63,918 nucleotides of DNA, filler included, from Streblomastix strix (GCA_008636045.1; 4 parts of 4 records of this genome joined end to end with filler, not necessarily neighbours in it), one strand, 5' to 3'; positions 16,011 to 50,936 are shown, counted from the whole stretch's first letter. Program-made: numbers and translations. Notes: generated by a model not told the origin, from the letters alone.

Positions 16011-16787
16011 ATTTTGAATTACTAAGCATTTTCTATTCTTTTCTTGAGTATCAACATACTTGCAATGCTTTTCTAAGACCAAATGCCACACTGCTCTCAT
16101 AAAGAGTCTGATATGCAGCAACACGCATTCTAAAAGTGTTCAAAGGGGAATAACCAATAATAAGAAAAGAGTCAGCAATCAAACCTAAGTTCATCGCGCA
16201 CACGCAACAACAAAAACCCTCTTTCAGCACATGAGATTGTGACATGTCTTATAAGTTCATCTGTGTAAAGCGAAATAGAAGTGACAATGTGATAAAATAT
16301 ATATATTGAAATATTTAAATGTACCAAAGCATTCATCATAAAGTTACTCACGGACGGGGCAGATGCCGTTTTCACGCGCTTATCTCTGTACCAAAGCACG
16401 GTCGAGACTTTCCTATTTATGGTAATTTCATCGTAAAGTAAAAATAAAATAATTTATAAATTATTGGATGAAAATTGGATCATACATTTAAGGTCTCAAC
16501 ATCCTGACGTGTTGCTGGTGTTGCACTGACTTTCTGAACCCAACGTTGTCCTTCCTCCTCAAATTCTCTGTGAATATTGGGTAATATATATGGAATTAAA
16601 TTATTTTTATAGTGTAAAAATTACACCTTGGCGGCAGGATCGAATTTAAAATCTCCTAAGTAAAAGCAAGCTCTTTCTTTCCATCAGTGCTGCCCTTTTC
16701 TGCAGCTTTTTTCTCTTTTACATTGCTGACAAGTGTTGGAATGTCATATTTTACGAGCGATGGCAATAACGATGCCGTGACTGACAT
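16011..16787 (-). CDS. DNALI1: Axonemal inner-arm dynein light intermediate chain p28 (3' end cut by contig edge)
   Basis: SLVKYDIPTLVS..EILNSILPPR..WVQKVSATPATRQDV..ARENGICPVREQLYDECFDELIRHVTISCAERGFLLLRVRDELRMRVAAYQTLYESSVAFGLRKALQ matches the p28/IDA4 consensus; several short introns. Confidence 0.93.
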
Positions 16788-16939
16788 TTTAACTAAAAAT
16801 TAAGATCAAAAATAATGATAATGTTCAAAAAAAAAAGGAGTAAGGAAAGAAAGTAGTAAAAATGTGAGTGTTGGTTTGGTGACTCAAAGAGCAAAGTTAG
16901 CGAATTTTGATTTAATGGTTGTCAGGTCATTGAATCGAG

Positions 16940-17010
16940 ATCGGAACCTATCCGATGGGAGGGTCTGGGGTTTTTGCCTCAGACAGCGTGTTTGGGGGGC
17001 GGTAGCCCCA
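16940..17010. other. GC-rich island of three adjacent hairpins (possible small structured RNA, regulatory element or mini-element)
   Basis: ATCGGA-accta-TCCGAT; GTCTGGGG-tttttg-CCTCAGAC; GGGGC-ggta-GCCCC, in AT-rich intergenic DNA upstream of p28. Confidence 0.4.
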
Positions 17011-17551
17011 TATCAAGATTAAAATAAAGGAGTAATGTATTATATTTAAAAGAAAGAGAAAAATAATTGCTGTATATATAATGTACAGTGGGAAAATTTG
17101 TAATTTATTTTGTTATTTTAATTATAGTTCTATTTGTTGTATTTGGTAATATAAAATTGTGTAAATAGTTTGTATGCGAATTTAAATGATATATTTGAAA
17201 CTTAATTACAAAATTATTTCTATTTCGACTAGGAATTGTAATTTTACTAATATTTCAATATATCAAAGGAATGAATAATCTAAGCCATTAATTTTGCAAT
17301 TATGATTGAATTTTCATATATTAGAGTGGAATTATATATGACAAATGCGGATACATCTAAAGAACAACGAATAAAATATTAAACAGCAAGAAATAAATAT
17401 GTGAAAATAAAAATCGTCGTTCATGTACTTTAATTTATTATGACAGTAAATTATATTATAAAATAATAATATTATATCACTGAATTAGTTGGTATTAAGA
17501 ACGATTAAATTAAAACAAATTAATTAAATTAAATAATAATTTATGAAAATC

Positions 17552-31918: not shown

Positions 31919-32018
31919 NNNNNNNNNNNNNNNNNNNNNNNNNNNNNNNNNNNNNNNNNNNNTTAATTAATTAANNNNNNNNNNNNNNNNNNNNNNNNNN
32001 NNNNNNNNNNNNNNNNNN
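31919..32018. other. Artificial contig linker
   Basis: N/TTAATTAATTAA/N block. Confidence 0.97.
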
Positions 32019-32590
32019 TTTTTCATTAACTAATTGTTCAGAGTTAACTAATTTGTCTAATTTCATCATGATAGGTAATCTGTCCGATCAAGTTTTCATT
32101 AATGAAATTGAAATAATGGCATCGAATAATTAGTCGATGGCTGAAATACATTATTTGATGAAATTAGTGGCGATGAACAGCTTCAGAATTGATTAAAATA
32201 ATTGTTTTTAGAATCTATGACCTGCATATGACCTTAGGATGGTGTATCAAAGTAATATGAAAAAATTGATTTTTTTATAGAAATTTTGACTTATCATAAA
32301 TTTTTTTTATTATGTAGACTGAAAAATCATGGAAAAATTGAAGTTTTTTGAATGACCTGAGAATTGATATACTAGTCAATGTTGATACGCTGATCACGAA
32401 TATGATGATAAAAATGAGATTTTGGACTACTGATTCTGTCGAATTGTGCAGAACAATGTAATTGATTAATGGAGTGAATAAATGATATGAATTGTTCATA
32501 TGCTTCGAGTGCATTGAGAGCATTGGGTAACAAGCTGACAGGTTGGATTCCCACCATATCAGACATATTGCCATAAAGTTAGAATCACGG
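32019..32590 (+). repeat. Terminal/subterminal repeat of element 1 (direct copy of 39015-39570)
   Basis: tttttcattaactaattgttcagagttaactaatttgtctaatttcatcatgatagg.. is identical for about 120 bp, then progressively diverged. Confidence 0.88.
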
Positions 32591-32911
32591 ATAAACGATA
32601 TGAATTATCTATGTGTGCCAATGTGCCGACTTAGACCCCTCTAAAAAATCCATATTAGCAGAAGTGTGTCGGTCGGTCGCTCGGAATATTAATTATAGCA
32701 GTCCAATTAAGTGATTGATAAAATTTCTGTCCCATTAATATATCGATGTGCTAGCGGAGTGGATAAATGATATGAATTATCTATAAGAGACAAAAGGACG
32801 GGACGGGACAAAAATTTTTAGTCCTGAAGAATTTGTCTGCCATATACTATATGCCATAAATTAAATAAAATTATTTTTAGGAACTATTTGAACTTTTTAT
32901 TCGAAAACAAA

Positions 32912-35743
32912 ATGGCAACAGAAGAATTTCAAATGACAAATCAAACTAACAAACAAACGTGAAATGTGGGACACTTGAGAAAGGACCAAAACGTAAATAT
33001 ACTCGCAAATCAAAAACAGGTGAGAAAGCAAAACAGATGATTGAAGAAATGATTAATGGATAAACTGCTGAGCAGACAAATGAACAGACAAATGAATAAA
33101 TTATTGAACCAAGTAATAGATAAATAATTGAGAAAAAATATGACGAACGCATTCATGATCTAATTAATTCTGAATGTGATCTTGAAACAGGACTTGCAAA
33201 TTAATAATTAGCTTATAGATTAGAAAAAAATAGAGATGACAATATTTTTCTTGAAATGATACAACCGACAGCGGAATTATATATGTAAGAAAAAGATTCA
33301 AGAACAATAATTGAACGCGTTAAAGATAGTATGATTAACACAGTAAATTATACAAAAGTAGGCTAATAAGAAGGTAAAAAATAATAAATAACAGGAAGAT
33401 TTATAGATCTATCATTAATGGATGACGATAAACTATGCGTAATTGATATAGATATTCATAAGGATAAATCAATTGAAGAAATTGATAAAATTGGATAAAA
33501 TCTAATTGATTCACTTCCACCAAATGTAGGTTTAGTTAAGATTGCTCATGGAGGACTACACATTTATTGCAATAGAAATTACTACAGATTATCTTCCAAT
33601 CGTAATGGGAAAGTTACTGCTATAGATAGTTCTGATATTGATGTATTTGCATAAATAAATAAATATAAAATTGAAAATGGATTAGAGACTAAAGAATTGG
33701 TTTAGAATCGAGTAATTGCTCCAAATACATCTATTCGAGAAACTAAAAATAATTAACGAATTACACTCAAATATGAAGCAATTAATGACTGGGAAAATGC
33801 ATCTCATTTAGCGAGCTTGCGACAGATACTTGACAAATGGAATATTGATATTAAGATATCATAAAAAGATTACGCATAATAGTAACATGATAGAATATAT
33901 GGAGTATAAATCGATGATGAAGGTACAATTGAACAAATGAATGATGAACTTGCAAAAGCGTGTGTTGATGGATTGAAATCTTGATATAGATAATTTTCCT
34001 TAACCAATCAATATGGATGTATCTCTTCTAAGTATATTCTGTGGATTATTTTGAATCGCTAATGAATCAATTAGAACTGAAGGAATAGGAAATATACGTA
34101 AATTTAATATGCTAACTGCAAACGCTGATAAGAACTATGAATAACCTTCGTCTAATGGCGAACGTAAGCCTAATCCATGGATCATTACAAAAATCCAAAG
34201 GTATCATAACAAAGACTACTACGAATAGATAATTAAACCATTATTGAAAAAGAATTATGAAGCATAAAAGAAGGAAAAATAAATCATAATTAAAATGACG
34301 TTGATTCCTAATAAGATTGATCTATAAGATGGATTCATATTACTTGATATGTAAGAGAAAACAGCTAATAGAGAATACGAAAATGAAGAATAAATCGTTA
34401 TAGATTTAAAAAGATAATTAATATACTACGACGGTGAAACTTAAGATATATATGCGATTAAAGGGTATGATGCTATTTGCGACACACAAGTTTTATATCA
34501 TAAAATAGAAGGAACAGTCTACAAATAATTAGAGAAAAAAATATAAATTTCAAAAATAAGAAAACTGATGAAAAGATTGATGATAAAAAGGAATCTAAAC
34601 AATTAACTGCAAAACTTATCTTTAAGAGATATGCTTCAAAATTTGCTAAGAAAGGATGTAAATTCATTAGTGAAGATCCAAAAATTCTCACAGTATTCCA
34701 AGGATATAAGTATAAATAATTAGATACAATTGATTATGAATGTTTGCAAAAGTATCTTGATTTGATTAAAGAAGCTATTGCTGCATGTGATGAACGAATC
34801 TATGAATATATTCTTAATTGGATTGCATGAATGATACAAAATCCTGGGAAAAAGTCTAGCGTTGCAATAGTATTATAAAGTAGATAAGGTATAGTTAAAA
34901 TAGATACACTGATGTAATCGCTGAACTAACAAGCAGATATAGCTGTCAATATATAACTAACATGGATGAATTCACAGGAAGATTCAATTCAGTAGTTGAA
35001 AATAAAATTTTTGCAGTACTAAATGAAATGATGAATTATAATGATTGAAAGAAAGGTGTTGCAACAGTAATGAAATCAATTATTTCTGATCTAACTATAA
35101 GAATTAATGAAAAGAATTAACTAAGAAGAACTGTAAAGAATGTAATGAATATAATCTATATAACAAACGCTGATATGCTTGTATAATTGGACTCTGATGA
35201 CAGACGTCATTTAGTATGTGCTTGTAAAATTATTCATTAAGTAATTGAAGAACATAAAGAAGATGCTGATTATTTTAATGAATTAAGCTAAAGTTACACA
35301 TAATAGTTTTATGAAAATTTAATGATATTCTTTCTTGAAAGAAATATTTCATAGTTCAATCCAACATTAATTCCAATGACTGAAGCTAAAAAATAATTGA
35401 TAAATGTTGACCGGGAACCAGTAGATGATGTAATTATGGAACATTATGAGCAATTCAAATATGGAATTCCAATAGCTTTTGTAACTTAATGCAAACCATA
35501 GAATAGGTAATTATAAACATATAAGAATACAATGGTTCACAAATTTGAAGAATAAAGAATATAAATTTTAATGGAATAAGAACTAGAATATATGTATTAA
35601 ATAAGGATTAATAATCGTATTATGATAAAATGATGAATGAAGAAGATTCTGAAACGTCTAAAGTAAACTATTAGAAATGTAAGAAAACAATTGAAGATGA
35701 TGAACTCATTGAATAGGTAGTATAGGAGGCAAAAGATGAATGA
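32912..35743 (+). pseudogene. Prim-Pol (AEP primase-polymerase) fused to SF3 helicase (D5/NrS-1/DUF5906-like), copy 1, disrupted
   Basis: LCVIDIDIH and LVKIAHGGLHIYCNR Prim-Pol motifs; YEYILNWIA*MIQNPGKK, degenerate Walker A, FTGRFNSVVENKIFAVLNEM. Frameshifts near 33980, 34900 and 35570 plus internal TGAs. Confidence 0.85.
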
Positions 35744-36403
35744 AAATGAATTTATTTTTGTTCAGACATTTATGGCAGGCTTATCGATTAATGGGACAAA
35801 ATTATCTGTCCTCATTAGTGTATGCATGCTAGCGGAGTGGGCAAATTGAATAATTATCCATATGGGACAGTTTTTGGGACGGGACAAATCCGTGGACTCC
35901 TGTGAAAAAGTGCTGCCATATTGCCATTCATGCCTTTAATGAAATCAGTGATAAAGTGAATTTGTGATAAAAATTTTTTTTGAAAATGAACGATTCTATG
36001 ATTAATGAAAATCCTAAAATATATTTACGAAAATGAATGTGGGACAAATTTAAAAGTCAATATTTGGAAAGGCTGCCATAAAAATCTCTTTATTATAAAG
36101 TATGGATGTGCAATTTAGATAGAACGTTCAATAGCTATGGAGAATTAGATTCAAAATGAATGATATGGCATTATGGCACGATGGTAGATGATATGCACTA
36201 CCTTCAGAATGCTGTCCAGTCCCGTCCCGTGTCCCACATAATCAAATAATCAATTTACATATATAATAGAAGGATATTCTATAGGATTCTAGTTCATTAA
36301 CATATCTCATAAAAAATAAAGGGACAAATCTGAAAGTCAATCTTTGAATAGCCTGCCATAAAATTTTATAATTATTATTACTATTCATTAGCGCAAAAAC
36401 AAA

Positions 36404-37609
36404 TCATATTTATTGATTATTTTGTTAGTTATATCGATCAATTATCTCACTAATTTAAAGAAAATCCTGTACGTTAGTTATGATAGTTTTCTAAAGACGT
36501 CGAATCAAAAGGAGTTATAAATCGTAAGCAGATGCACGGAATTCCTATCGCTGAATTCTATACTTTTATTGGGCATGGGATCGTTACTCTACGGCAATAC
36601 GTTCAGCTTCGCATGATTACGAACGAATCACATTCAATAATTTAATAATTAATTTACTTGAATTTTCATCTATATCTAATGAATAATATTATAATTTTGT
36701 TCGTTAATTATCGATAATAATCTCATAAAATTTATTCAAATCAATCTCATATAACTCTATTCGATAGATAGCTGCATCACCACTCATAATCTATCGTTTC
36801 TTCATTATTTCTCCAAAACTGATGCGCTTGAAAATTTCATTCACTAATTATTTTATTGATTTATTATATCTTAATGCAGTTGATAGAGGAACATATGATC
36901 CAATCAATTGGTAAATATTTTCTTGAAACAATAGTCTTCCCATTCGTCCATTTCCATCTTCGTACGGATGAATGCGTTCGTATAATAGACGACATGCAAA
37001 CATATCCATAATCTTATTTGGTATATCATACTCATAAACGAAGTCCACTAACTATTATAGTTCATTTGGATCGATATTTTCATGTTATATTCCAACAATA
37101 GCAGCATAGATTATTTTTGAATTATTCTTATCACAAACATATACGCTACAATGTCTAAATGTCTCTCTTTTGAATAGTGCTTAGTATAGTCCTTCGATCA
37201 ATGGCACTTCATTACTCTTAAAGTATTCAATTGCATCATTAATATCATTTTTTGGTAATATATCTTACTCAATACAGTTAAAATCCATAATATTCTTATA
37301 CATTAATCTATCTAAATCAATCGGAGCCAATATCTTACCTATTTAGTCAGATCCATCATCATTGAACGTTATTGTAAATTCATTAATTTTTATAGTTTAT
37401 CTTGGAATCTTTTTAATAATAAATGAAATGCTATTCGACATAGTTGTTGGAACTTCATTAATGTTCATCGCTATTGCAAACATTGGCTTGTTTCTTATTG
37501 ATACATCTGCATATAATACTTTAACGAAAGAAGATGAAAAGACCCCAATAAATTTATCATTTTATTCGTGACTATTAGACCAGTTATTTATAGTAAAAAT
37601 AAATGTCAT
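36404..37609 (-). CDS. Fic-domain protein (AMPylase family), C-terminally fused in frame to the tail of the AT-hook protein
   Basis: 401-codon open frame under table 6 with YERIHPYEDGNGRMGRLL (HPFxDGNGRxxR motif). The last ~68 codons (36404-36610) match 43093-43292. The true start may be downstream of 37609. Confidence 0.85.
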
Positions 37610-38196
37610 TGAAAAGATCAGTATCACCATCTGAAAAAATAAGTTAAAGAGGACCTATCTCCCTACGTTAATCCATACCGACAATTCCAGCCAAAGTTGA
37701 AGTAGATTCACCATTCAAAAAGGAGTAAGATAAAATGTCTGTTTAATCTGTTCGTTCAAGAAGAAGTTCATCAATATTTGAAGAAATAATAATACCTTAT
37801 CCATCAGTACGTCGATGGCTACTTGATTTAATTAGTGAAGATGAACATATGATTAAGGAATCAGCCCATTTCATATTATCAGATCATTATTTAATAAGAG
37901 TTATTATATATACATTTGATGTAGTAGAAAACTAAGTTGTACTTAATACAAAAGATGAAAGATGTTGTGGCAAATTTGTGCACGATAGCACTAGAACATT
38001 AAGAGATATCACAATTAATAATATAAATATACTTACTCTAGATATCGAGAAAGTAAATCTTCTCAGAGATTCATATAAATTATGCTTATAAAATGTTAGA
38101 AAAATAGCTAGTATTCTCGATCTAAGAGATATATCATTTAAACTAATGTCTGCAGCAAGTAAATTGTTAATGGCAGTTCTATCACAAATTCATTGA
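37603..38196 (+). CDS. Hypothetical element protein, 197 aa
   Basis: Intact ATG..TGA frame under table 6 (MSLKRSVSPSEK..PYPSVRRWLLDLI..RCCGKFV..), no introns. Confidence 0.65.
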
Positions 38197-38222
38197 AGGT
38201 TCTATATTATTTTGGTAATTAA

Positions 38223-38716
38223 ATGGCTGATACAGATTTATACTTACTAGATGCGCTTATAAAACATGATGAAACTATATTCGAAACATTAGAAATAATT
38301 CAAATGGTTTTGTTCAATAAGTCGAAAACATTAATAATCAAATCAATATGATAAATAATGCTCATGTACCTGATGTATATACTAGACCTGAAGCAAATGA
38401 AATATTTGAAACAAAATTAGATAAAACCGATACTTATACGAAAACTGAAACCGATGCTCTACTCGATGTTAAAACTGAAAAATCTGAACTAATTGATGCA
38501 TATATTAAGTCCGAAACTGATACAAAGTTGGAAGAGAAGGCTGATAATATTGAACAAATCGATGCATATACTAAAACTGAAAACGATACTATACTCGATG
38601 ATAAAGCAGAAAAAATTGAATCATTTACAAAAATTGAAACTGATACCCTATTCGATGATAAAGCTGAAAAAACTGATACTTAAACTAAAATAGAAACTTA
38701 AACTAGTAGTTAATGA
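38223..38716 (+). pseudogene. Fibre-like repeat protein (xYTKxETDxLLDxKA(D/E)K repeats), frameshifted and truncated by element 2
   Basis: DVYTRPEANEIFETKLDKTDTYTKTETDALLDVKTEK..DAYTKTENDTILDDKAEK. The repeat series stops abruptly at the AGTAGT terminus at 38705. Confidence 0.65.
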
Positions 38717-39570
38717 AAAAGACAAATGGCCCCACATTGATAAATACCGTGATTTGCCCACAGCAGAAATACCTAGTAATATTACGAATTTCTGACGTAT
38801 GAAAAATGAATTGATTATCCAGAACCGAAAATCAATGAATAAATTGATGTTAGTAAAGAAATAAGGATAAAATAATAAATTATAACATTTATGAATATCA
38901 TTAGTAATGAAAAATAATTGATATGATTTATGATATGTTTTAATAAAAAAAAATTGATCTCATTTCTGAGACCCACAAATGAACAGGATTTAGGCACTGT
39001 TTCGGGCATTGGTCTTTTTCATTAACTAATTGTTCAGAGTTAACTAATTTGTCTAATTTCATCATGATAGGTAATCTGTCCGATCAAGTTTTCATTAATG
39101 AAATTGAAATAATGGCATCGAATAATTAGTCGATGAATGAAATACATTATTTGATGAAATTAGTGGTGATGAACAGTATCAGAATCATGAATAAACAATA
39201 TTTTTGGATTCCTCATATGTGATATGACCTTAGTGAAGAATATGAATGAGATATGAAAAATTAAGTTTTTAACGGGAATTTTGAACTATCATAAATTTAT
39301 TTTATTTTTATTATATAAACTGAAAAATCATAGAAAATTTGAAGATTTTTGAATGACCTGAGAATTGATGCCTTAGTCAATGTTCATACGCTGATCTCGA
39401 ATATGAGGTTAAAAGTTAGTGAATGGACTGATGATTCGGTCGAATAAAGCAAACTAATGAAAAAGATTAATGGAGTAGATAAATGAAATGAAATGTCCAA
39501 GTGTCCTGAGTCACAAGCTGAACTCATCGGATTCCCGTCATTAGCCATAATGCCATAAATTTGAATCATG
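38705..39570 (+). repeat. Putative terminal inverted repeat arm of element 2
   Basis: 5'-AGTAGT start; non-coding; distal part shared with element 1. Internal inverted repeat 38707-38723 / 39012-39028. The partner arm is not in the window. Confidence 0.65.
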
Positions 39571-39737
39571 GAGATATCGATTGAATTACATTAAATGGAA
39601 AACAAGACAGATAAGACAAGACAAGATAGAAAAATATAAGACACCAAAAGTTGCAGGACAGATGGACAGATGGAAAGATGAATCAAAAATAAAAACTGTT
39701 TTTCTAAAACTATTTCAATATTTTATTTTTCTGGAAA

Positions 39738-42395
39738 ATGGAATAACTGGCAAACAACATTGAAGACAGTAAACTCATTGAATCAATCTTGAGCTAATCA
39801 ATTGAAAAGAATATTAAATGTATGACACTTGAGAAAGGACCAAAAAGGCAATATAATCGTAAATCAAAAACATATGAGAAAGCTAAAGTATTAATTGATC
39901 AGATGATTAATGAACAGACAAATGAACAGAATAATGAACAGATAAATGAATAAGAATAAATTAAAGAGTAATCTGATCCACAAAGTGATTTTGATTTATT
40001 CTATGAAATATTTTCTGAATGTTTCACTAAAGCTAATGAATAAATATAATCCAAAACAATCAAAGAGAGAATTGATGGAGCTATCATTGATTTATATGAA
40101 TATCGAAAATTCACTGATTTAAAACTTAAAAATAAGTAATAAACAGGACATATTGTTGATTTTAGTTTATGCAAAGACGATAATTTTTGTATTATTGATT
40201 TTGATATTGATCATGCTGGTAAATTGAATGAAGAAGAGAAAGAGAAAATACAATAAAATATAATCAATAATATTCTTCCAAAGAATGTTGTTTTAGTTCT
40301 AACTGCAAGAGGTGGAATACATGCATATTGCAATAGGAATAGGTATAAATTACAAACAAACAGAAATGAGAAAGTGATAGTATATGATGATAATCTTGAA
40401 ATTGATATCTTTGCATAGATGTATACACATAAAGATGGTGAACTAATAGCGAATCGAGTAGTACTACCAAATAGTAAAGTAAGAATCATAGAAAAAGGAG
40501 TCTAGAAAAAAGATATACTTCATTGTAAAGAACTTAACGATTGGTCTAATGCTCTTCGTCTAGCTTCCTTGCATAATATTCTTGGTAGTTGGAATGAAGA
40601 TTTAATAGCAAAAGATGATGACATTTCTAATACAGTTTCATACGATTGTATACTTGAAGCAATGCCAATTGAGATAGCTGATGCATGTATATAATGTTTG
40701 AAAGGACTAACTATTCACATTGATACAAACACATTAGCAAAAAAGATAAGTTTACTTCCATTATTCAAGGGACTAAACGGATTAGAATAAACGAAAGATA
40801 AATATTATAAAGAATATACCTATATAACTGTTTATAGAAATAATATACTCACACCAAAAGCAAATGAACATTGGAGCGATAGAAAAGGAAGATATTCCAG
40901 TAGAGCTAATGCATGGATACTAACGAAAATTATTAAACTTCATAACAAAGAATACTATGAAACAACTCTTAAACCTTTACTCAAAAAGAGATTACAAGAA
41001 AAAAATAATTAAAAGCATGAGATAAAATTGGAGACGATTGAAAAATAAAGAATTGCTATCAATGATCCATTCATATTTGGAAATATAAGTGAAAAAGCAA
41101 CAAGAGGAGAATATAAAGAAGAAGCAGATATTGCAACTGATTTAACTAAGGTAATTAGATACTATGCAGGTGAATCTTGATTAGTGCTTATAATCAAAGA
41201 ATATGATGCCTAATAAGATATTAATGTAATGAGCAATAAAACAAAGACTAACGCCTATGAATAAATGCACATAATTAGATTATGTGGTTATAGTAAAAAA
41301 CATATAAAAGTATAAGATATTTTCGAAAAATATGATGGATAATATGTTGTTGAAGGAGTTAGATTCAATTCAGATAATCCAGATGTATTCAATGTCTTTC
41401 AAGGATTTAAGTATGAAAAATTAGAATAAGTGGATGAATCAAAGATAGATATGTTCATTAATCATCTGACATATGGAACAATTGCAGGAGAAAACTAAGA
41501 GGTTTTTGAATATATTCTTAATTGGATTGCATTCATTGCATAAAACGCAGGATAAAAAACTAGAACAGCTATCGTTCTTCAAGGACTATAGAGAATTGGT
41601 AAAAACAGATTCACTGATGCTATTTCAGAAATGTTCTCACGATATAGTCAACCAAATATATCTACAATCGAAGAATTCACAGGAATATTCAATTCAGTTG
41701 TTGAGAATGTAATGTTTGCAGTTCTGAATGAAATGATAAATTATAATAAATCTAAGAAAGGTATTGCACATGCAATGAAGAAAATAATTACAGATAAAAC
41801 TATAAGAATTAATGAGAAAAATTACTCAAGACGAAGAGCTGAGAATGTAATCAATACAATAATAGTAACTAACAATGATTACCCAATCTAATTAGATAAT
41901 AGAGATGGACGTTATTTAGTGATAAAATGCAAAGCAGTTCATAGAGGAGATCATGAATATTTCAATATGCTGAGCAAAGGAATGGATAAAGATTTTTATG
42001 ATAATTTATTAACATTCTTCCTAAACAGAGATATCTCAAAGTTTGATCCAACTGATTTTCCTTTGTCTGATGCAAAGAAATAACTGCTAAATGTTTGTCG
42101 AACACTAGTTGATGATATTATTATCAAAAACTATTAGAAATTTAAAGATGACATTCCTATATCAGAGGTAAGCTAAATGAAACCAAATAATTGGAATGAA
42201 CGAAGCTTCAAACATTCGATCTTGCAAAAACAAACTGAACAAAGAATATGTATAGATAAAAAATAAGTTAGAGTATTTAAATTACTTGAAGAAAATTATT
42301 CAGTTTATGACGATATGATAAATGATCTAGATAAAGAAGAATAACGTGAAGAATAAGAGAGAATAGAAAATGCAACTGAATATTTTACTGAATGA
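39738..42395 (+). CDS. Prim-Pol plus SF3 helicase, copy 2 (885 codons, one in-frame TGA at 41178-41180)
   Basis: FCIIDFDID, LVLTARGGIHAYCNR, NRVVLPNS. Helicase TAIVLQGLQRIGKNRFTD (Walker A), FAVLNEM (Walker B variant), IIVTNN (motif C). No frameshift. Confidence 0.88.
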
Positions 42396-43092
42396 ATATT
42401 ATTTTTGTTCATAAACTGTGGAGAATTAATGTGAAATCCTTGTTGTGACAGATTCTGTTTTATTCTGTCTTAATTATATTAGTGATGTTCACTAGCCATG
42501 GAATATTAATGTGAAATCCTTGTTGTGACAGAAAAGACAAGACAGAAAAAAGTTTATCGTCTAATGTTGATGTACAGATGGACAGTTGGACTGATTATAA
42601 AAAAATCATGTATGATGTATAGTTGACGTATTAGAATCAATACGTTTTCATATATCTGTACCGATTATGTTGGTTCTAAGCAATAATATTCATTCCAATA
42701 TGTTTGGTGTCGAATAATGGATGGAATCCAAATCTGTCTAACTATCCATCTGTCCATCAACTTTTGGTGTCTCTTATTTTTCTGTCTTGTCTTGTCTTTC
42801 TGTCTTGTATTGAATTTAGATCTAATCCTCCATAGCTAGTGAATATCACATATAAATGTACAAGATAAACAAGATAGAAATAATGAAAGTGGACATTTTG
42901 ATTCAATTACTATGATTATCGCGAATCATTAATGAACACACATCAAAGCAAAAATAAATTCGAGCAACCGACCGACCAACTATTATTTTTGTCAATTTTA
43001 TGGTTTCTATCCTGCACACTTGTATATATGAACAATTCATTTCATTTATCCACTTCGCTAACACACACCACTAATGCAAAAATGAATCATAT

Positions 43093-43500
43093 TCATTGAT
43101 TATTTGGTTAGTTATATCGATCAATTATCTCACTAATTTAAAGAAAATCCTGTACGTTAGTTATGATAGTTTTCTAAAGACGTCGAATAAAAAGGAGTTA
43201 TAAATCGTATGCAGATGCACGGAATTCCTATCGCTGAATTCTATACTTTTATTAGGCACGAGATCGTTACTCTGCGGCAATGCGTTCGGCTTCTTCTTGT
43301 GAGCAATATTTTTTAGGTCTACCTCTTGGTTCTATTTTCTCCTCATTTAATTATGTCTATTGAATAGGATTAAATGATTGATCGATTAGCGGAGCATGAA
43401 GCACTTCATCAGTTGGAATGGATTATGTTTCAATCAATTATAAAACTGGTTTCTTCGATTATCTTTTACGGACTTGTTTTGTTTCACTGATTGCTTGCAT
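43093..43500 (-). CDS. Small AT-hook DNA-binding protein, 135 aa
   Basis: Intact frame MQAISETKQ..EPRGRPKKYCSQEEAERIAAEQR..YNQPNNQ*, with an AT-hook RGRP core followed by a basic helix. Confidence 0.75.
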
Positions 43501-43519
43501 TTCCTTTTAAGAAAAACTC

Positions 43520-44478
43520 TCAATTACTTATATTAAATTAACTTTTATAATTTGCTGGTAATGAATTTATATCATCACTAAAAAATTTACAATAATATAT
43601 AGGTAATTCAATAACATTAATTTTTTCATAAGAATTCAATAATTTACACTCAACATTACCGTTCTTATAAGCAATGAATGTTGCTAACTCATTGAATTAA
43701 CGTCTCTATTTCTAAAATCTTATAAGTAATCTAGAGAAATCAGCGTGGATCATTAATATATTTCCACTTTTGAAAATTATTAAATTCTATTGTTATTGCC
43801 TTTTCATTACTTGTTCCAATTACGCATATCTTTGTCGTATGAATTTACCATCTAGCTCTCTATTTTACTACACTTATTTTGGAGTAAATCTGTTCATAAA
43901 TGCAAGGTGTGGAGTTTTATTGTAAATCAACCATTTATTCCATCTAGCTAGGCGTTGCAAAACCTTATAAATCTTATCAAAATCCGTTTCTGATTGTGCG
44001 AATGACGCTATAAACTACTCTGTTATGTTATATAAATGGAGAACCTGTAAAATATAATGATAACATATTATCATCACAAAATTTTCTAATAAGATTAGCT
44101 TTAAATCCAGTTTCACCATCACCTCTAATATTGGTAACGTATATTTAATTAATGAGCTTCTTTAATGCAGCTAATATAAACGTAGCATTTTTCTCATCTA
44201 CAATTAATGGAATGACAACAAAATATTTTGTATTAATGTTGGTCGCAAGTAAATAATGCTATCTCCTTTGAGTAACTGGATTAACACCGAATACAAGATC
44301 AATCTCCCAAGATCCAAGTTTTGGAGAAAAATATGGGCGTTAGAGTTTGTTTAATGGCTTCACTTTATTATTTTTTATTTAAGTTTATTGTATTATCTTC
44401 ACATTTGTTAATTTTTTCATATTGTTTGATCTTTGATTTGAAAGGAAATAATGAAAGAGGTTTTTGAGGCTAATTTAT
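43520..44478 (-). pseudogene. Retroviral-type (RVE) integrase of Polinton type, disrupted
   Basis: RPYFSPKLGSWEIDLVF (D1, 44298-44309), NIRGDGETGF (D2, about 44112-44123), HNRVVYSVIRTIR (third acidic residue replaced), YNKTPH. TGA at 43977-43979 and frameshifts; ends approximate. Confidence 0.85.
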
Positions 44479-44850
44479 TCACTAGATTTATTCAGTGACA
44501 TATGATCTGTTAGAATCTTGGCTTTTGATAGATCTAGCTCGTCTTAATGGATCATTATATTTTTCTGCTTCTGTTTAATATATTTCGAACCATTCAAGTA
44601 GTGTCTTTCCACTTATCTATATTTCATTTGCATGATTAATTAAAATATTTTATTCTTCTTTACTTGGTGTTATTTGTATATTTGATATAAACTGTACAAA
44701 TTTCATTATTCCAATATTTGAGTTCGCTAATTGTATGAGTTACTGCAACATATTATGTGATTCATATTCTATTTATTCATCTGTTTATGCAAATCTTGCT
44801 AACAATAATCAGTAAATTTTATCTTAATTAGCTTATGAATCTCTGTTCAT
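44479..44850 (-). CDS. Hypothetical element protein (123 codons, in-frame TGA at 44809-44811)
   Basis: ATG..TGA frame MNRDSQANQDKIY*LLLARFAQ..GKTLLEWFEIYQ.. Confidence 0.45.
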
Positions 44851-44875
44851 TTCTATTCAAAAATAATTATAGACA

Positions 44876-45025
44876 TCAGTGACAGATCTTACTCTCACAA
44901 GCATATTTGATAGCGGCTTCCCAAACAAATTTTCAGATAGACTTCCAATCAATATTCAATGATTCTAGAGCATCAATTGCAATAGTAATGTTAGCAGATA
45001 ATGGTTCAAAGATAGGCATTTTCAT
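44876..45025 (-). CDS. Small hypothetical element protein (49 codons, in-frame TGA at 44933-44935)
   Basis: MKMPIFEPLSANITIAIDALESLNIDWKSI*KFVWEAAIKYACESKICH, tightly packed between neighbours. Confidence 0.35.
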
Positions 45026-45044
45026 TAGTGCAAAAATAAATCAA

Positions 45045-45524
45045 TCACTCTAACGTTTTAACGAATCCATCTAATTAATTTATATAATTATCTCGTATTT
45101 CTCTATATTCTTCACAAACATTATGAAGCTTATTTTCGACACTACATTCAGAGCTCATCCATAGAATCTCATCTTTTATTCTATTTTTAAGCGACATTCG
45201 CTTTTCAAATGCAGTATCGCAATATGCCTCATCAAAATATAATTCATCAAAGCATATAAGATCCTTTTTACTATTTATTTTCAGTAATTCACCTGCAAAT
45301 CTTAAATAGGATGCTTAATCGAAACGTACTGGCTTCTTTTTATTAGTTCCACAAGATAATCCATCAGTAATTTTTGCATCTATTTTTCTTTCACAGTTGT
45401 CCAATCCATCAAGTAGCATTTATAATTGCGCAGATAAGTTGCTTAAAGCTCATGTTTATTCTATCGATTGTATACATTATTTTAGTGTATTAACTACTTC
45501 GTTTTGCTTTTTTTATTTACTCAT
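45045..45524 (-). CDS. Hypothetical element protein (159 codons, in-frame TGA at 45450-45452)
   Basis: MSKQKKQNEVV..EQT*ALSNL..PVRFDQASYLRFAGELL..LDGFVKTLE*; no frameshift. Confidence 0.5.
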
Positions 45525-45548
45525 TTCGATTAAGTAAAAATAATATAA

Positions 45549-47918
45549 TCACTATTTAATAAAATAACTATCTGCACTAATATTATTGATAAATGGAATA
45601 TATGATTGATTCGATAATACTATCATCTTAGTATGAGATCCCATGATTGCATTTTTCTCCATTTTCAACCTGCTAATAGTACCTTTCCTCTACGCTAATG
45701 TTGTATTAATAGCTGTTGCAAAAGATCCTTTGTTAATGCAGTCTATAAATGTTTGTTCATTAATCTATGGATTTTAATCCAAAATAACGCCTTTAAAAAT
45801 AATCTCATTATTAATAATATAATTTTTAGGTGATAAAACTATGCAATTATAACCATATTTTTCCATATCAATATGAAGTATTTATTTCTATCCATTCTCC
45901 GAAAACACACAATCTTTGTATCTGTCAAAGAACCCCTAGTTCTTGATGACTTCATCAAATAACTGTTCTGGACCTCTGTTTGGATTACCACTAATTGCCC
46001 AAGTTAATGAATCAGTATCTCCTTGTACAAAGTGCATCCTATTCATATCATACGCTTTGTGCATAAAATTATATATGAAATTAACATACCAAAATTTCGC
46101 AGAATCTAATACAAAATAAGCAACTTATAAACATGTATTACACCTGCAATTTTCTCTATCTACTTATACAGCATATAAATCATTATTTAACTCAGTCGAA
46201 TGAAAGAATTCACCCATCATATGCTATATGAATGTCATATTTGCAGAGAGTAATCTTGTATTTGAATACTTTTCACTATTCAATGCACCACCTCCAAATG
46301 CTGAATTCAATGTTAACTTACAGAATTATGATAATCCTTCATTTTTATCATCTTTCGCTTGCTATCGAAGATTCAAAAATTCTTTCACGAATGAGTTGAA
46401 ATTAGTGTGTTTCGTGAATATTGTAGCACTACAGGGTGGGGAATAATTCCATGGCCGAAGTTCAGAACAGCAAAGGTATATCTATGAATAATTAAATATA
46501 AATATATATATGATACATTGTATTATAGACATTTTTAAACAAAACATAAATTTCATACTCATAGGGGTTGGTATGGATTTTTATGATCTTTAGTTTTATA
46601 CTCATGGAAAAAAAATTTAAAATTATATGCTGCTCCAAATTTTGAGAACTTTTATATCTGATGTATATATATGTACTACATATACATATATATACATAAT
46701 AAAAATATAATACAATGTATCATATATATATTTATATTTAATTATTCATAGATATACCTTTGCTGTTCTGAACTTCGGCCATGGAATTATTCCCCACCCT
46801 GTAATTATCTCATCAATTTCATTATGACATGTATCAATTAGTAGCCATAAATAGTAGTTATTGAATGACATTATTTCATTTTTGGTATTCTATAAATTCG
46901 TTAATTTACGTTCAGTTTTATCATGCGGAAGTTAGTAATTGACTAGATGGTTTTAAAGAAATTCGCCAATTGTCTCTTTATTTGTTGTGATATCAATATT
47001 TTTCAGAATAGAACCTCAATTGATAACTTCATTCAAATATTTCTCATCAACATGACCCTTAATCTCAGCTACAAATATTAACATTTTATCGGCTACTAAT
47101 GGATCTTCAGAATATCTATTTTAATCATATATTAGTGTTTTGCATCTATCTTAATCAGTAATCTTTACAATAATTTATGCAAACATATATATTATATGAT
47201 TTATGTATGGATTTAACGTATTTGGTTCACTGATCATAACATTTGGGTATTAACTATGAAAATCTAACTAAACTACATGAGTAACCACATAATCTGAATC
47301 TATTGAATATATATATTTGTTTTCATAATCAAATTCGAAATGATTAATTCTCGTTTCTCCTGCAATATTGTATCTGTGTATCACATTTGATATACCTCCT
47401 GTAATATCTTTACGCAATAATTGATATCTTTCATCGCTCGTTAATGTCACGGGTAATTGTTTAATTAACGCATATTTCTTTAATTGTACCATTAGTTTCA
47501 TTTAGTTTTCTTCACTATTACTTTTGTATACATTACAGTACAAATAACATGGAATTACATTATCTTTTGAATGTCCATTGTTATTATCTATTCTATCTAA
47601 TGTGGACCAATGTTTCCATGTGAATCGTGCGTTGCACATATGGCATCGTTAATTCTTGAATATTTCTTTAAAATAATCATAATTATCAATCGTTACGTTA
47701 TTGTTTGAATCTTTATTCTCTTTACTATCTTATTCAATATAATTATCCACTTTAGCTCTCCAATAACACTATGTGATTTCGATTGATTTATCTGTGCTTT
47801 CACAATTATAATCTCCATTGATATTAAAACCATTATATGCCATAGAATATTTGATTGCATTAGAGCACTAAGACATAGATAGATTGGCTAACATGTCCAC
47901 TTTAAATTTGAACATTAA
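45549..47918 (-). pseudogene. Protein-primed family B DNA polymerase (5' part missing) with internal HNH domain; interrupted by a MITE and a TGA at 47016-47018
   Basis: LRKDITGGISNV (YxGG), LDFHSQYPN (motif A), CKLTLNSAFG (motif B), FVQGDTDSL (motif C), LSPKNY. The frame is restored when 46432-46803 is removed; stop at 45549-45551. Confidence 0.92.
46432..46801. mobile_element. 370-bp non-autonomous Tc1/mariner-type MITE with perfect 96-bp TIRs and TA target duplication
   Basis: TA|CAGGGTGGGGAATAATTCC..GGAATTATTCCCCACCCTG|TA; arms 46432-46527 and 46706-46801 are exact reverse complements. Confidence 0.93.
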
Positions 47919-48018
47919 NNNNNNNNNNNNNNNNNNNNNNNNNNNNNNNNNNNNNNNNNNNNTTAATTAATTAANNNNNNNNNNNNNNNNNNNNNNNNNN
48001 NNNNNNNNNNNNNNNNNN
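47919..48018. other. Artificial contig linker
   Basis: N/TTAATTAATTAA/N block. Confidence 0.97.
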
Positions 48019-48142
48019 AAGAAAATAATAATAATTAATAAATTAATAAATAATCGGGAAAAAAGAAGAAGAAAGGTAAAAAATATTCAGATATGGAAAA
48101 AGATCCAGATCAAGAAATCAAAAATAATGAATCATAATAAAA

Positions 48143-50936
48143 TCAAAAGAAACAATAAGAATAACAATAAGTAAAACAAACCTCGAAAACAAATTTAAAC
48201 AAAACTAATTCAAATTCAAATTCATCATCCTTATCAAATTCATTATTTTTGATTTCTTGATCTGGATCTTTTTCCATATCTGAATATTTTTTACCTTTCT
48301 TCTTCTTTTTTCCCGATTATTTATTAATTTATTAATTATTATTATTTTCTTATTTATTATTTTCTTACTTCTTTGTTTTGTTTGAGTTGACACTTGGAAT
48401 AAAAATTTATTATGATGATTAATTTCCATTATTTTCAATTTTTTCTTCAATTTGGTTGAATTACCCCAAATTATGATTAGTTTCATTCACATTTTCTTAC
48501 TCATCTTCTTTCCCACATTATTATATTAATCTCCTTTCCATCATTTCCTAATTAAATTTGTCTTCTATTTATTAGAGCTGCTAATTTAATATTTCTTTCT
48601 CATCATCATCATCATTAGTCTTATGAAACAACTTGAAAGGTGTTGTATGTGCAATCGGAGGTGACATGGGTTTATCATCATTTGATTTGGGTTGTGAAAT
48701 ACTCAGTTAAACTGGAAGTGAATAAGGATTATGAATCTGTGATTGTGATTGTTAATTAGTTTGTGTTTGTGTTTGTGATGATGAGAATTAATTCTATTAA
48801 GATGAAGATGATTATATTGATGAAGGAGTAAATGGAGAAGTGATCTCAGAATGCTGTTAATTGAATTATTGTGATGATGTTTGATTTATTGAGATTTATC
48901 CTAATTCTGGTTTAGTGTCATTTTCAACCTGGCTGAAAGATCCAGCATATATAATAGATTGGGAAGGTGCATAATATTTCTATAGTTAGTTGGATTTCTC
49001 AATATCTTACGTTTTTTAGCTATGATCATAGAATTTGTACATCGTGTTCATGGCACATACTAACTAGATAAATCATTAAAAATTATATTATAATAATTGA
49101 GTTTATCAATGAAATAAGAAAATAAATAAATTTATATTCAAATATCTTTTCTTTAATATACATTATATACTTTTTCTTTGTTCCTAACAAACAGTCTAAC
49201 ATAATGCTCTTCAAATACATCAGATATCATCAATGATACATGTGCTTTGCCAATATGAAACTTTTTGGCTTAATTTGAGTAATAATAAAATAAAAGATTA
49301 ATAAAAAACATAATTAAATAAATTTAATATTAATATTAATATTCAAAATTCATTATTTTAATTCTATATATATATATATATATATATAATTACACGGTTT
49401 TCCTCCTTTGCATAGAAGAATGATATATTATCAACAGGATTCTGATCCTTCAAAGCGTAGTTTATTTTTCTTTCCTTCAGAATTAGATCAGATTTGACTA
49501 AATGACCAGAAGATGCATTAACAATATCATCTTCTGTGGGCTGATTGGAATAAATAGAAATTGTTAATATATGATTAAATAATTATGATATAATAATTAA
49601 ATAAATAAAATTAATCACTCATAAATATAAATAGTAATTTCATTCTTTCATATTTTCATACAGTTGGTCTGTTCCATTCTTTAGATATGAGTGCTTCAAG
49701 AGCTAATTTATATAAATCACGTTATCTGATGCGCTTAATTAATTTCTGAGATGAAAATTAAATAAATTAAAAAATTAAAATTTAAGAAATTATTGAATAA
49801 TTAATTAAGAATAAATAAATATAATAAATAATAATGATATAAACCTAAGCTTCTACTAACCTCGGATCTTATGACATCTCTATCAAACTTAGAAGACTAT
49901 CTGAGAAGCGACAATATCTATTAAAATAATTATCAAATAAATAAATAAATAAAATAAATAAATAAGTAAGTAAAATAATTAATTAATTAATTAATTAATT
50001 AATTAACAATTTTAAATTATCTTTAATTAAAAACACATTCTTTCATTTCTTTCTATTAGATATGTCATACTCGGATGGACTATCTATACTCTATGAAATG
50101 TGTAGCACACTATCTGCAAGTATGAATATATCAACTATCATATATTCGAGAGCTTGAGATACTTTATGTGAATAAACCTTGTGAAATAGATGAAAATAAT
50201 AAAAACATATAAAAAATGAAAAATAATTCAGATAAATATTGATAATTTTAGTATCTCATTTAAATATATATTCCTTCACACTTATTTATGCATTGTATAT
50301 CTCATATGAAACATCTCATATAAGGAATATATCTCCTTTGATGGATAACAAATCTCATTGTCTATTACTCGGCTGAACATCATTAATCTGAAAATAATAA
50401 ATTAAATATAATAAATAATAATAAAATAAATAATAATAAATTAAATATCATAATTTGAATATAATAAATTAAATATAATAAATAATAATAAATAATAATA
50501 AATTAATTATAATAATAAATTAATTATAATAATTTGAATATAATAAATTAAATATGAATTCCCACCTTGAACAATCAAATGACATTTTAATTCCACAATA
50601 GTAGCAGTCTCTTTCCAAATAGTCAAATTTATCCACATCGACTGAATTTCTTTTGTTGCTCACAATATCTGATAGAAATGCATATGGAGATGTACTGAAT
50701 AATAGAATAGAATAGAATAAAATAAATATAAATATAAATAAGAAATAATAATTTTATTATTTTCTTACTAATTATTCTATATCTATATATTAATATAATA
50801 TTATCTATTCATTATCTATAAATTAATATCTAATATTAAATTATTCAATCAATACAAATATATAATATATCTAATATTAAATTAATCAATCAATACAAAT
50901 ATAATATATTAAATAATATTAAATAATTCAATCAAT

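What the first reader, a model, noticed from the sequence alone, without database searches (positions are those of the whole stretch)
32019..47918. Polinton-like element family combining pPolB, RVE integrase and its own Prim-Pol/SF3 helicase, recoded to the host TAR=Gln code
Seen: an AGTAGT terminus, an RVE integrase, pPolB motifs A/B/C, a Prim-Pol-SF3 helicase fusion next to the terminal repeat in both copies, plus AT-hook, Fic and fibre-like genes. All are intron-free and full of in-frame TAA/TAG. Known: pPolB plus integrase plus AG-starting TIRs define Polintons/Mavericks; primase-helicase fusions are more typical of Polinton-like viruses, virophages and phages. Inference: an endogenous DNA virus/transposon lineage of a non-canonical-code protist that carries two priming systems. 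It is hidden from standard-code annotation. No capsid, packaging ATPase or protease gene is visible in this window.
Basis: partly seen in the sequence, partly recalled or inferred. Interest (0 to 1): 0.85.

Follow-up and report, generated by a model that had tools for sequence, protein, structure and literature searches.

The report
Decayed Maverick-type virus relics in Streblomastix
This stretch is one contig of the termite-gut protist Streblomastix strix carrying broken copies of a primase-helicase, a retrovirus-type integrase and a protein-primed DNA polymerase from its already reported endogenous Maverick/Polinton-type viruses, which likely travel together as one element much as in mavirus-type virophages, so it is a new example of a known kind rather than a new kind.

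Summary
The frame around them needs changing.

- **Window make-up:** the window is four ~15.9-kb pieces joined by N44-TTAATTAATTAA-N44 linkers. The finding is exactly piece 3, so its "ends" are contig ends, not element termini.
- **Organism:** the top protein hits, and nearly all of them, are Streblomastix strix, an oxymonad that reads TAA/TAG as Gln. It is not a ciliate.
- **Genes on the piece:**
  - two diverged AEP primase-polymerase/SF3 helicase genes (A frameshifted, B with one TGA);
  - an rve integrase with an AT-hook tail (frameshifted);
  - the last two thirds of a pPolB (one TGA plus a ~370-nt foldback insertion);
  - an intact Fic ORF that carries the integrase's last 66 residues.
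- **Not found:** AGTAGT terminus, inverted terminal repeat, capsid, ATPase or protease.
- **Linkage:** integrase–pPolB adjacency recurs on five other contigs, judged by neighbouring locus tags. Primase-helicase adjacency recurs on only one of 37.
- **Prior work:** Bellas et al. 2023 already reported TAR=Gln endogenous viruses in S. strix. Mavirus and EMALEs already combine primase/helicase, rve integrase and pPolB. A 2026 preprint describes multi-replicase elements.

Verdict: a new member of a known kind, of moderate to low interest.

The parts
32019..32600 (+). Conserved non-coding region upstream of primase-helicase copy A. It is a direct repeat of 39015-39590.
   Evidence: blastn 32019-32495 vs 39015-39496: 84% over 489 nt. 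The first 121 nt are identical, starting at the contig's first base.
32941..35740 (+). AEP primase-polymerase / SF3 helicase gene, copy A (A-type), a pseudogene as assembled.
   Evidence: tblastn of intact S. strix homologues P0007 and P0262 runs through frames 2,3,2,1,3 (four frame changes), 47-75% identity. DUF5906 fragment, E 5e-6.
36407..37714 (-). Intact 436-aa Fic-domain ORF (HPYEDGNGRMGR). Its last ~66 residues (36431-36622) are the integrase C-terminal tail.
   Evidence: Pfam Fic E 1.1e-5, 26.6 bits, cutoff 24. Tail 94% identical in protein to 43096-43293. 36393-36610 vs 43076-43293: 94.5% in DNA. Integrase proteins align to 36431-36622.
37423..38193 (+). ORF of unknown function (257 aa).
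   Evidence: ORF list. No Pfam family at E<=0.1.
38273..38713 (+). Repeat-rich 'fibre-like' ORF (TKTETD..L.D.K.EK repeats). Function unverified.
   Evidence: Translation. No Pfam family at E<=0.1.
39015..39590 (+). Conserved non-coding region upstream of primase-helicase copy B.
39585..39679 (+). Left arm of a ~95-nt inverted repeat bracketing primase-helicase copy B.
   Evidence: blastn 39585-39679 vs 42826-42732: 84% over 96 nt, E 3e-19. Alignment.
39678..42395 (+). AEP primase-polymerase / SF3 helicase gene, copy B (B-type), 905 codons with one in-frame TGA at 41178-41180.
   Evidence: Translation. AEP: AF2 pLDDT 88.2; Z 9.2 to pRN1 1rni and 8.0-8.1 to NrS-1 N300; D174, D176, H215 and D243 invariant or near-invariant in 34 sequences. 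S3H: NrS-1 helicase 6k9c E 5e-16; DUF5906 E 1.2e-12. Copy A has Q where B has TGA.
42732..42836 (-). Right arm of the inverted repeat. A weaker third copy lies at 42524-42595 (+). The same sequence follows the integrase tail on another S. strix contig.
   Evidence: P0047 (EZS28_028765) residues 370-404 match 42836-42732 at 86%.
43108..45019 (-). rve-type integrase with AT hook (RGRPKK) and a conserved 66-aa tail. Pseudogene as assembled; the third catalytic residue is Y.
   Evidence: tblastn of P0053, P0055, P0056 and P0081 through frames -2,-3,-1,-2,-3. Family triad D144/D204/D240. rve in 10 of 21 members. Fold match to PFV/HIV IN cores, E 6e-8. Most near-identical run contigs lack one base at 44404, so one frameshift may be copy-specific or an assembly error.
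45048..45449 (-). Small ORF (134 aa) between pPolB and the integrase. It is also present in another copy.
   Evidence: Translation. A similar stretch ('LKLDARIAGGLPCRTNK') lies between the pPolB and integrase parts of P0059 (by eye).
45552..47918 (-). [quoted passage not shown] It includes an HNH/EndoVII-like insert and motifs A, B and C. It runs off the contig end and is broken by a TGA at 47016-47018.
   Evidence: PF03175 E 2.8e-6. 34 S. strix homologues. tblastn map at 77-85% identity. P0015 has W at the TGA position. HNH/endonuclease VII PHROGs on P0015 residues 783-833, E 1.4e-8.
46430..46803 (.). Foldback/MITE-like insertion inside pPolB. Perfect 98-nt inverted arms, 178-nt loop, ends TA-CAGGG...CCCTG-TA. 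Absent from intact homologues.
   Evidence: 100% over 98 nt; sequence. P0015 aligns up to 46800 and resumes at 46433. P0015 and P0013 read straight across.

Best explanation
This piece is a whole contig of Streblomastix strix holding decayed parts of its Maverick/Polinton-type endogenous viruses, and the primase-helicase likely belongs to the same composite element as the integrase-polymerase module.

**Shown:**
- Two diverged AEP-primase/SF3-helicase genes, a retrovirus-type (rve) integrase with an AT-hook tail, and an HNH-bearing protein-primed PolB lie in the order primase-helicase -> <- integrase <- small ORF <- pPolB.
- All are read with TAA/TAG = Gln.
- All are broken here, by frameshifts, two TGA codons and a foldback insertion.
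- Intact paralogues exist elsewhere in the genome.

**Inferred:**
- In live copies the pPolB would replicate the linear genome by protein priming from its ends.
- The AEP-S3H would unwind DNA and possibly prime internally, as proposed for mavirus S3H.
- The integrase, steered by its AT hook to this AT-rich genome, would insert the copy.
- The two copies on this contig would be tandem or recombined relics. In one of them a Fic gene has replaced all of the integrase except its tail.
For: - **Organism and family.** The hits are S. strix EZS28_ proteins: 8 of 10 for the primase-helicase (one more is an unnamed ENA record at 35% identity), all 34 for pPolB, 46 of 62 for the integrase.
- **Domain identities.** AEP fold Z 9.2 and 8.1, with conserved DxD, H and D residues. 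S3H matches the NrS-1 helicase at E 5e-16, or 3.7e-36 with a profile. Integrase fold E 6e-8. pPolB PF03175 plus motifs.
- **Linkage of integrase and pPolB.** Five neighbouring locus-tag pairs sit on contigs of equal length: 019047/8, 015831/2, 003948/9, 005271/2, 018276/7.
- **Linkage of primase-helicase to that module.**
  - Both diverged copies here (37-50% protein identity) sit in the same flanks: an 84% upstream repeat and a 94% integrase tail downstream.
  - EZS28_003343 (primase-helicase) neighbours EZS28_003344 (pPolB) on a 20,324-bp contig.
  - The spacer repeat between integrase and primase-helicase B recurs after the integrase tail on a third contig (P0047, 86%).
- **Precedent.** Mavirus and low-GC EMALEs carry primase/helicase + rve-INT + pPolB at one end (PMC8547959, passages). 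S. strix EVEs using TAR=Gln are reported (PMC10120064, passages).
Against: - Only 1 of 37 tagged S. strix primase-helicase proteins has a listed pPolB or integrase as tag neighbour. Eight other contigs of 10 kb or more with a primase-helicase show none.
  - That test is insensitive. It saw only annotated proteins in set length ranges, and it missed this contig's own three genes.
- Copy B alone is bracketed by a 95-nt inverted repeat. That pattern fits a separately mobile cassette.
- No TIR, target-site duplication, capsid (DUF4106), ATPase or protease is on this contig, so no element boundary is defined.
- Reads could not bridge any junction. The public-run contigs laid on the piece are 80-350 nt.
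- The assembly comes from single-cell data (title seen; use of whole-genome amplification is recalled). Chimeric joins are therefore possible.
Confidence: 0.6

Rival explanations
1. The AEP-S3H gene is a separately mobile replicase cassette, or a small PLV-like element. It inserted or recombined next to the integrase end of a pPolB/integrase Maverick. The contig would then show tandem or nested elements rather than one element with two replicases.
For: - Copy B is bracketed by ~95-nt inverted repeats that are not element TIRs.
- The gene bodies have diverged to 37-50% identity inside 84-94% identical flanks. That is the pattern of cassette or allele exchange.
- 36 of 37 tagged primase-helicases have no listed pPolB or integrase neighbour.
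- Two identical primase-helicase proteins sit two tags apart on one 33-kb contig (EZS28_000690/000692).
- A 2026 preprint proposes exactly such autonomous AEP/PolA replicase mobility. It notes that pPolB is consistently paired with DDE integrases while AEP genes are not (10.64898/2026.10.13.758929, section 13 read).
Against: - Two very different AEP-S3H alleles occupy the same position relative to the integrase tail and the upstream repeat. Independent insertions would rarely produce that.
- The integrase-spacer junction recurs on another contig, so the composite was copied as a unit at least for a time.
- Copy A has no bracketing inverted repeat.
- No target-site duplication can be read.
Confidence: 0.3
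2. The side-by-side arrangement is an assembly or amplification chimera of unrelated repeat copies.
For: - The family is very high-copy. Summed depth is 200-20,000 in run X1 and uneven along the piece.
- The contig's first 121 nt are identical to an internal stretch, as expected at a collapsed repeat node.
- Perfect palindromes occur at 46430-46803 and at the start of the next contig, 48019-48351.
- Laid contigs show recombinant joints between copies A and B (table 5).
Against: - The primase-helicase/integrase-tail junction occurs twice on the contig, with different neighbouring sequence.
- The integrase-tail-to-spacer-repeat junction (the stretch that adjoins primase-helicase B) recurs on P0047's contig.
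- The pPolB-small ORF-integrase order recurs in P0059.
- A primase-helicase/pPolB tag pair exists on another contig.
- The palindrome inside pPolB keeps the reading frame and has TA flanks, like a real insertion.
Confidence: 0.07
3. A germline-limited ciliate element of the Tlr1 type (ciliate code, AT-rich DNA).
For: TAR=Gln reading and 25-29% G+C.
Against: - The best hits are all S. strix proteins.
- The helicase is SF3 fused to an AEP. It is not the Tlr1-type pPolB-derived SF1 helicase described in PMC11161782.
Confidence: 0.01

Closest known systems
Metamonada-group Maverick/Polinton endogenous viruses of Trichomonas vaginalis and Streblomastix strix (Bellas et al. 2023, PMC10120064)
   Same: Same host genome. 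Intron-free viral genes in the host's TAA/TAG=Gln code. Very high copy number (820 MCP hits listed for S. strix). pPolB plus rve integrase.
   Different: For S. strix, the passages and stored supplement I read give only capsid genes found by PSI-BLAST. They do not give the replication/integration module, the AEP-S3H, the HNH-bearing pPolB or the Fic ORF. No capsid gene lies on this contig. Supplement file 2 is cut in storage, so its S. strix rows could not all be read.
Mavirus and low-GC EMALEs of Cafeteria burkhardae (Hackl et al. 2021, PMC8547959; Krupovic et al. 2024, PMC11161782)
   Same: A replication/integration module of primase/helicase (S3H), rve integrase and pPolB placed together near one end of the element.
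   Different: - Mavirus pPolB has only a remnant exonuclease domain. The S. strix pPolB P0015 shows Exo I-III-like motifs (YDIETLE, FNSAKFD, YNILD; read by eye) and an HNH/EndoVII insert.
- The S. strix helicase is fused to a well-supported AEP domain.
- No sequence-level relationship to mavirus proteins was tested.
Multi-replicase and tandem 'polisuvirus' elements (bioRxiv 10.64898/2026.10.13.758929)
   Same: Elements with replicases of two classes, tandem integrations, and repeats other than the TIRs bracketing one replicase. pPolB is paired with a DDE integrase while AEP genes are often unpaired.
   Different: Different hosts. The term search of that preprint found no 'Metamonada'; it was not searched for oxymonad or Streblomastix. 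The S. strix copies are in a variant genetic code and are decayed.
Polinton-like viruses with AEP-S3H replicases; NrS-1 phage primase-polymerase-helicase
   Same: Same AEP + SF3 helicase architecture. The helicase matches NrS-1 by sequence, and the AEP matches pRN1 and NrS-1 by fold.
   Different: Per PMC11161782, PLVs mostly lack pPolB and rve integrase. Here both lie next to the AEP-S3H.

Membership tests
Polinton/Maverick (Polintoviricetes-type element) | [quoted passage not shown] | tested here: met
   PF03175 E 2.8e-6 on 45552-46601. Motifs A, B and C read. 34 S. strix homologues, several with precomputed PF03175. The profile found no PDB chain by sequence.
Polinton/Maverick (Polintoviricetes-type element) | Retrovirus-like (rve) integrase | tested here: met
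   rve in 10 of 21 family members, best E 2.6e-7. Fold match to PFV/HIV integrase cores, E 6e-8, prob 1.0. The window copy is frameshifted and has Y at the third catalytic position.
Polinton/Maverick (Polintoviricetes-type element) | Long terminal inverted repeats and 5-6-bp target-site duplications | tested here: not met
   The contig has no inverted partner of the upstream repeat. Both 'ends' are contig ends beside linkers. The pPolB runs off the end, so the real termini probably lie outside; absence here says little.
Polinton/Maverick (Polintoviricetes-type element) | Morphogenetic module: DJR major capsid (DUF4106 in Metamonada), penton, packaging ATPase, Ulp1-type protease | tested here: not met
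   No such Pfam family among 64 ORFs of the piece at E<=0.01. Capsid genes are reported elsewhere in this genome (PMC10120064).
Mavirus-type replication/integration module | S3H (primase/helicase), rve integrase and pPolB as neighbouring genes | tested here: met
   Gene map 39678-42395 (+), 43108-45019 (-), 45552-47918 (-). Description of the module in PMC8547959.
Mavirus-type replication/integration module | pPolB with degenerate exonuclease domain | tested here: inconclusive
   The exonuclease part lies beyond the contig end. The intact paralogue P0015 shows Exo I-III-like motifs by eye, which argues against, but no structure or profile test was run.
AEP primase-polymerase (Prim-Pol) fused to SF3 helicase | AEP fold with DxD, H and D catalytic motifs; Walker A/B SF3 helicase | tested here: met
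   AF2 pLDDT 88.2. VIA-align Z 9.2 (rmsd 3.6 A, 155 aa) to 1rni and Z 8.0-8.1 to NrS-1 N300; unrelated rows are <=3.5. D174, D176, H215, D243, G639, G641, K642 and E685 conserved in 34 sequences. DUF5906 in 34 of 34 and VapE-like in 30 of 34. 6k9c E 3.7e-36 with the profile.
Tlr1-type PLV | pPolB-derived palm domain fused to SF1 helicase, no separate pPolB | tested here: not met
   The helicase is SF3 and a separate pPolB is present.
Fic/DOC | Fic domain with HxFx(D/E)GNGRxxR motif | tested here: met
   Pfam Fic 26.6 bits, cutoff 24. HPYEDGNGRMGR read in the translation. The motif wording is recalled.

The most novel reading that the evidence does not exclude
The AEP-SF3 primase-helicase of S. 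strix is a self-mobile replicase cassette. It is bracketed by its own short inverted repeats. It moves or swaps alleles between endogenous Mavericks at a fixed slot beside the integrase. This would be a natural, high-copy test case for the recently proposed autonomous mobility of virus replicase genes.
Probability: 0.25. Interest if true: 0.65.

Novelty: new member of a known kind. Interest (0 to 1): 0.35.

Why it matters
It fills in the replication/integration gene set of the variant-code endogenous viruses of an oxymonad. In the passages I read, only capsid genes were described for this host.

It also gives one more case where a bona fide pPolB, an rve integrase and an AEP-SF3 helicase lie together. 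That bears on two current ideas:
- that helicase gain compensates for loss of the pPolB exonuclease;
- that AEP/PolA replicases move between small eukaryotic DNA viruses as independent cassettes.

The copies here are dead, and the assembly is too fragmented to settle either idea.

Tried and rejected
- **No whole genome is held for the window**.
- **Related loci.** Scans with the primase-helicase alignment found no relatives in metagenome contigs or viral contigs. A 23-nt exact pattern from the integrase tail found nothing in metagenome contigs.
- **Sequencing runs.** No RNA holder was listed. Four DNA runs from three studies hold parts of the stretch. Their contigs are 80-350 nt, so no junction could be bridged and no chimera test was possible.
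- **Bellas supplement.** No rows were found for the locus tags or contig lengths of interest. File 2 is cut in storage.
- **Sequence profiles.** The pPolB and integrase alignments hit no PDB chain. The integrase was settled by fold instead.
- **Other repeats.** No bracketing inverted repeat was found around copy A.
- **Other pieces.** The other three pieces hold ordinary intron-bearing host genes and no element genes.
- **Earlier findings.** This scan has no earlier findings on the genome, the sequence or the topic.
- **Atlas.** The look-up of the unknown ORF 37423-38193 was not accepted because it needs a non-standard code. That ORF and the 'fibre-like' ORF stay unassigned.
- **Ciliate/Tlr reading.** Rejected.

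Full report
**What the window is.** It has six runs of 44 N, arranged as three linkers of N44-TTAATTAATTAA-N44 at 15911-16010, 31919-32018 and 47919-48018. It is therefore four pieces of 15,900-15,910 nt joined by an all-frame stop linker. The finding's coordinates (32019-47918) are exactly piece 3. The pieces are probably whole contigs listed by length, because homologues sit on contigs of 15,937 and 15,869 nt. The "ends" of the finding are therefore contig ends. The other three pieces share no genes with piece 3. They hold ordinary host-like ORFs: SH3, CENP-L and Q-rich proteins.

**Organism.** The hits are almost all 'MAG: hypothetical protein EZS28_... [Streblomastix strix]'.
- Primase-helicase: 8 of 10 hits. 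One more is an unnamed ENA record at 35% identity. The other is a Rhizophagus D5-like protein at E 3e-12.
- pPolB: all 34 hits.
- Integrase: 46 of 62 hits, the rest being unnamed JGI/ENA proteins.

S. strix is an oxymonad that reads TAA/TAG as Gln, as stated in PMC10120064 (passages read). The host is not a ciliate.

**Gene map of piece 3** (table 6).
- *Copy A primase-helicase, 32941-35740 (+).* Intact S. strix proteins align through frames 2,3,2,1,3, so it is a pseudogene as assembled.
- *Fic ORF, 36407-37714 (-).* An intact 436-aa ORF with HPYEDGNGRMGR (Pfam 26.6 bits against a cutoff of 24).
- *Two unassigned ORFs.* 37423-38193 (+), and the repeat-rich 38273-38713 (+).
- *Copy B primase-helicase, 39678-42395 (+).* It has 905 codons, 35 TAA/TAG, and a single in-frame TGA at 41178-41180 where copy A has Gln.
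- *Integrase, 45019-43108 (-).* It runs in frames -2,-3,-1,-2,-3.
- *Small ORF, 45048-45449 (-).*
- *pPolB, 47918-45552 (-).* It lies in one frame and equals residues 765-1353 of the intact 1353-aa paralogue P0015, so about 2.3 kb of the gene lie beyond the contig end.

**How the pPolB is broken.** There are two breaks.
- A TGA sits where P0015 has Trp.
- An insertion at 46430-46803 has perfect 98-nt inverted arms, a 178-nt loop and TA-CAGGG...CCCTG-TA ends. Intact paralogues read straight across that site.

**Domain identities.**
- *AEP domain.* The N-terminal 400 residues of copy B fold with pLDDT 88.2. The 12 best Foldseek hits are all Prim-Pols. VIA-align gives Z 9.2 to pRN1 ORF904 (rmsd 3.6 A over 155 residues) and Z 8.0-8.1 to NrS-1 N300, with unrelated rows at 3.5 or below.
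- *Conserved residues.* In a 34-sequence alignment, D174, D176, H215 and D243 are invariant or nearly so. So are the Walker A residues G639, G641 and K642, and E685.
- *Helicase.* It matches the NrS-1 helicase at E 5e-16 with the single sequence and 3.7e-36 with a profile.
- *Breadth of the AEP family.* An exhaustive search with the first 500 residues of copy B found 151 representatives at E<=1e-3 and 72 at E<=1e-10. Several are unnamed metagenome proteins.
- *Integrase.* The family keeps D144, D204 and D240 in P0053 numbering. Ten of 21 members hit Pfam rve. The model's core matches PFV and HIV-1 integrase cores at E 6e-8. The window copy has Tyr at the third position.
- *Integrase tail.* Intact S. 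strix integrases end with an AT hook (RGRPKK) and a conserved 66-residue tail.
- *pPolB.* It carries an HNH/endonuclease VII-like insert. The nearest Atlas clusters also combine PF03175 with Endonuclease_7, at scores of 0.85-0.87, which are leads only.

**The repeats.** Copies A and B are direct repeats, and only their flanks are similar.
- The upstream 480-570 nt are 84% identical. The first 121 nt are identical, starting at the contig's first base.
- The downstream 218 nt are 94.5% identical. This block is the integrase's C-terminal tail. In copy A the Fic ORF carries that tail in frame.
- The two primase-helicase proteins are only 37-50% identical. The spacers between helicase and tail do not align.
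- Copy B is bracketed by a ~95-nt inverted repeat, 39585-39679 and 42732-42836, at 84%. A weaker third copy lies at 42524-42595. Copy A has no such bracket.
- No AGTAGT lies at any boundary. No inverted partner of the upstream repeat exists on the contig.

**Do the three genes belong together?**

Evidence for:
- Integrase and pPolB are tag neighbours on five other contigs of matching length. P0059 shows the same pPolB-small ORF-integrase order.
- Two deeply diverged primase-helicase alleles sit in the same slot on this contig, next to an integrase tail.
- EZS28_003343 (primase-helicase) neighbours EZS28_003344 (pPolB) on a 20,324-nt contig.
- The inverted-repeat sequence between integrase and helicase B follows the integrase tail on P0047's contig at 86%.

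Evidence against:
- Of 37 tagged primase-helicase proteins, only that one has a listed pPolB or integrase neighbour.
- Eight other contigs of 10 kb or more show none.

The tag test is weak. It sees only annotated proteins within set length ranges, and it did not recover this contig's own three genes. Reads could not help either. The run contigs laid on the piece are 80-350 nt, depth is very high and uneven, and recombinant A/B joints occur. One integrase frameshift, near 44404, is absent from most near-identical run contigs, so "pseudogene" holds only as assembled.

**Comparison with what is known.**
- Bellas et al. 2023 (passages and part of a supplement read) already place S. strix capsid genes (820 listed) in a Metamonada group with T. 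vaginalis Mavericks. They state that these EVEs use the TAA/TAG=Gln table.
- In four full-text searches, the only paper found that treats S. strix together with these elements was Bellas et al. 2023. I found no paper describing the replication module of the S. strix elements.
- Hackl et al. 2021 (passages) describe primase/helicase + rve-INT + pPolB as the replication/integration module of mavirus and low-GC EMALEs.
- Krupovic et al. 2024 (passages) note that mavirus is unusual among pPolB viruses in also having an S3H. They add that PLVs use AEP-S3H instead of pPolB.
- A 2026 preprint (section 13 read) reports elements with two replicase classes, tandem integrations, non-terminal repeats bracketing one replicase, and pPolB consistently paired with a DDE integrase while AEP genes are not.

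The S. strix contig fits these descriptions. It differs from mavirus because its pPolB family appears to keep exonuclease motifs (read by eye in P0015) and carries an HNH insert.

**Verdict.** I rate it a new member of a known kind, interest 0.35. The boldest reading still open is that the AEP-S3H is a self-mobile cassette occupying a fixed slot beside the integrase (probability about 0.25).

Noticed in passing
window 15911-16010, 31919-32018, 47919-48018: The window is four ~15.9-kb pieces joined by N44-TTAATTAATTAA-N44 linkers. Anything read across these points, or as a 'terminus' next to them, is an artefact of concatenation.
   Followed up: yes
window 46430-46803: A ~370-nt foldback/MITE-like insertion with perfect 98-nt inverted arms, TA flanks and CAGGG...CCCTG ends interrupts the pPolB in frame. 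It looks like a Tc1/mariner-style miniature element (the resemblance is recalled). Its family and copy number were not studied.
   Followed up: partly
window 36407-37714 (-): An intact Fic-domain ORF is fused in frame to the last ~66 residues of the element integrase. This stretch has the highest summed depth of the piece in all four runs (about 20,000 in X1). It may be a much-amplified chimeric gene.
   Followed up: partly
window 48019-48351 (start of piece 4): A perfect 114-nt inverted repeat with a 105-nt loop lies at the very start of the next contig, inside coding-like sequence. It is probably a hairpin artefact of amplification or assembly.
   Followed up: no
window 1-646 and 13817-14466 (piece 1): A 92% inverted duplication of about 650 nt starts at the contig's first base. 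It contains coding sequence (94-96% protein identity).
   Followed up: partly
P0015 residues 783-833; window about 47500-47640 (-): The S. strix pPolB family carries an HNH/endonuclease VII-like domain between the exonuclease and polymerase parts (PHROG E 1.4e-8). Atlas neighbours with PF03175 + Endonuclease_7 suggest this also occurs in other eukaryotic elements.
   Followed up: partly
S. strix proteins EZS28_000690 and EZS28_000692: Two identical primase-helicase proteins lie two locus tags apart on one 33,187-nt contig. This points to tandem duplication of the AEP-S3H unit elsewhere in the genome.
   Followed up: no
window 32019-32139 and 39015-39135: The first 121 nt of the contig are identical to an internal stretch, after which identity falls to about 84%. 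This is typical of a contig that begins inside a collapsed repeat node.
   Followed up: partly
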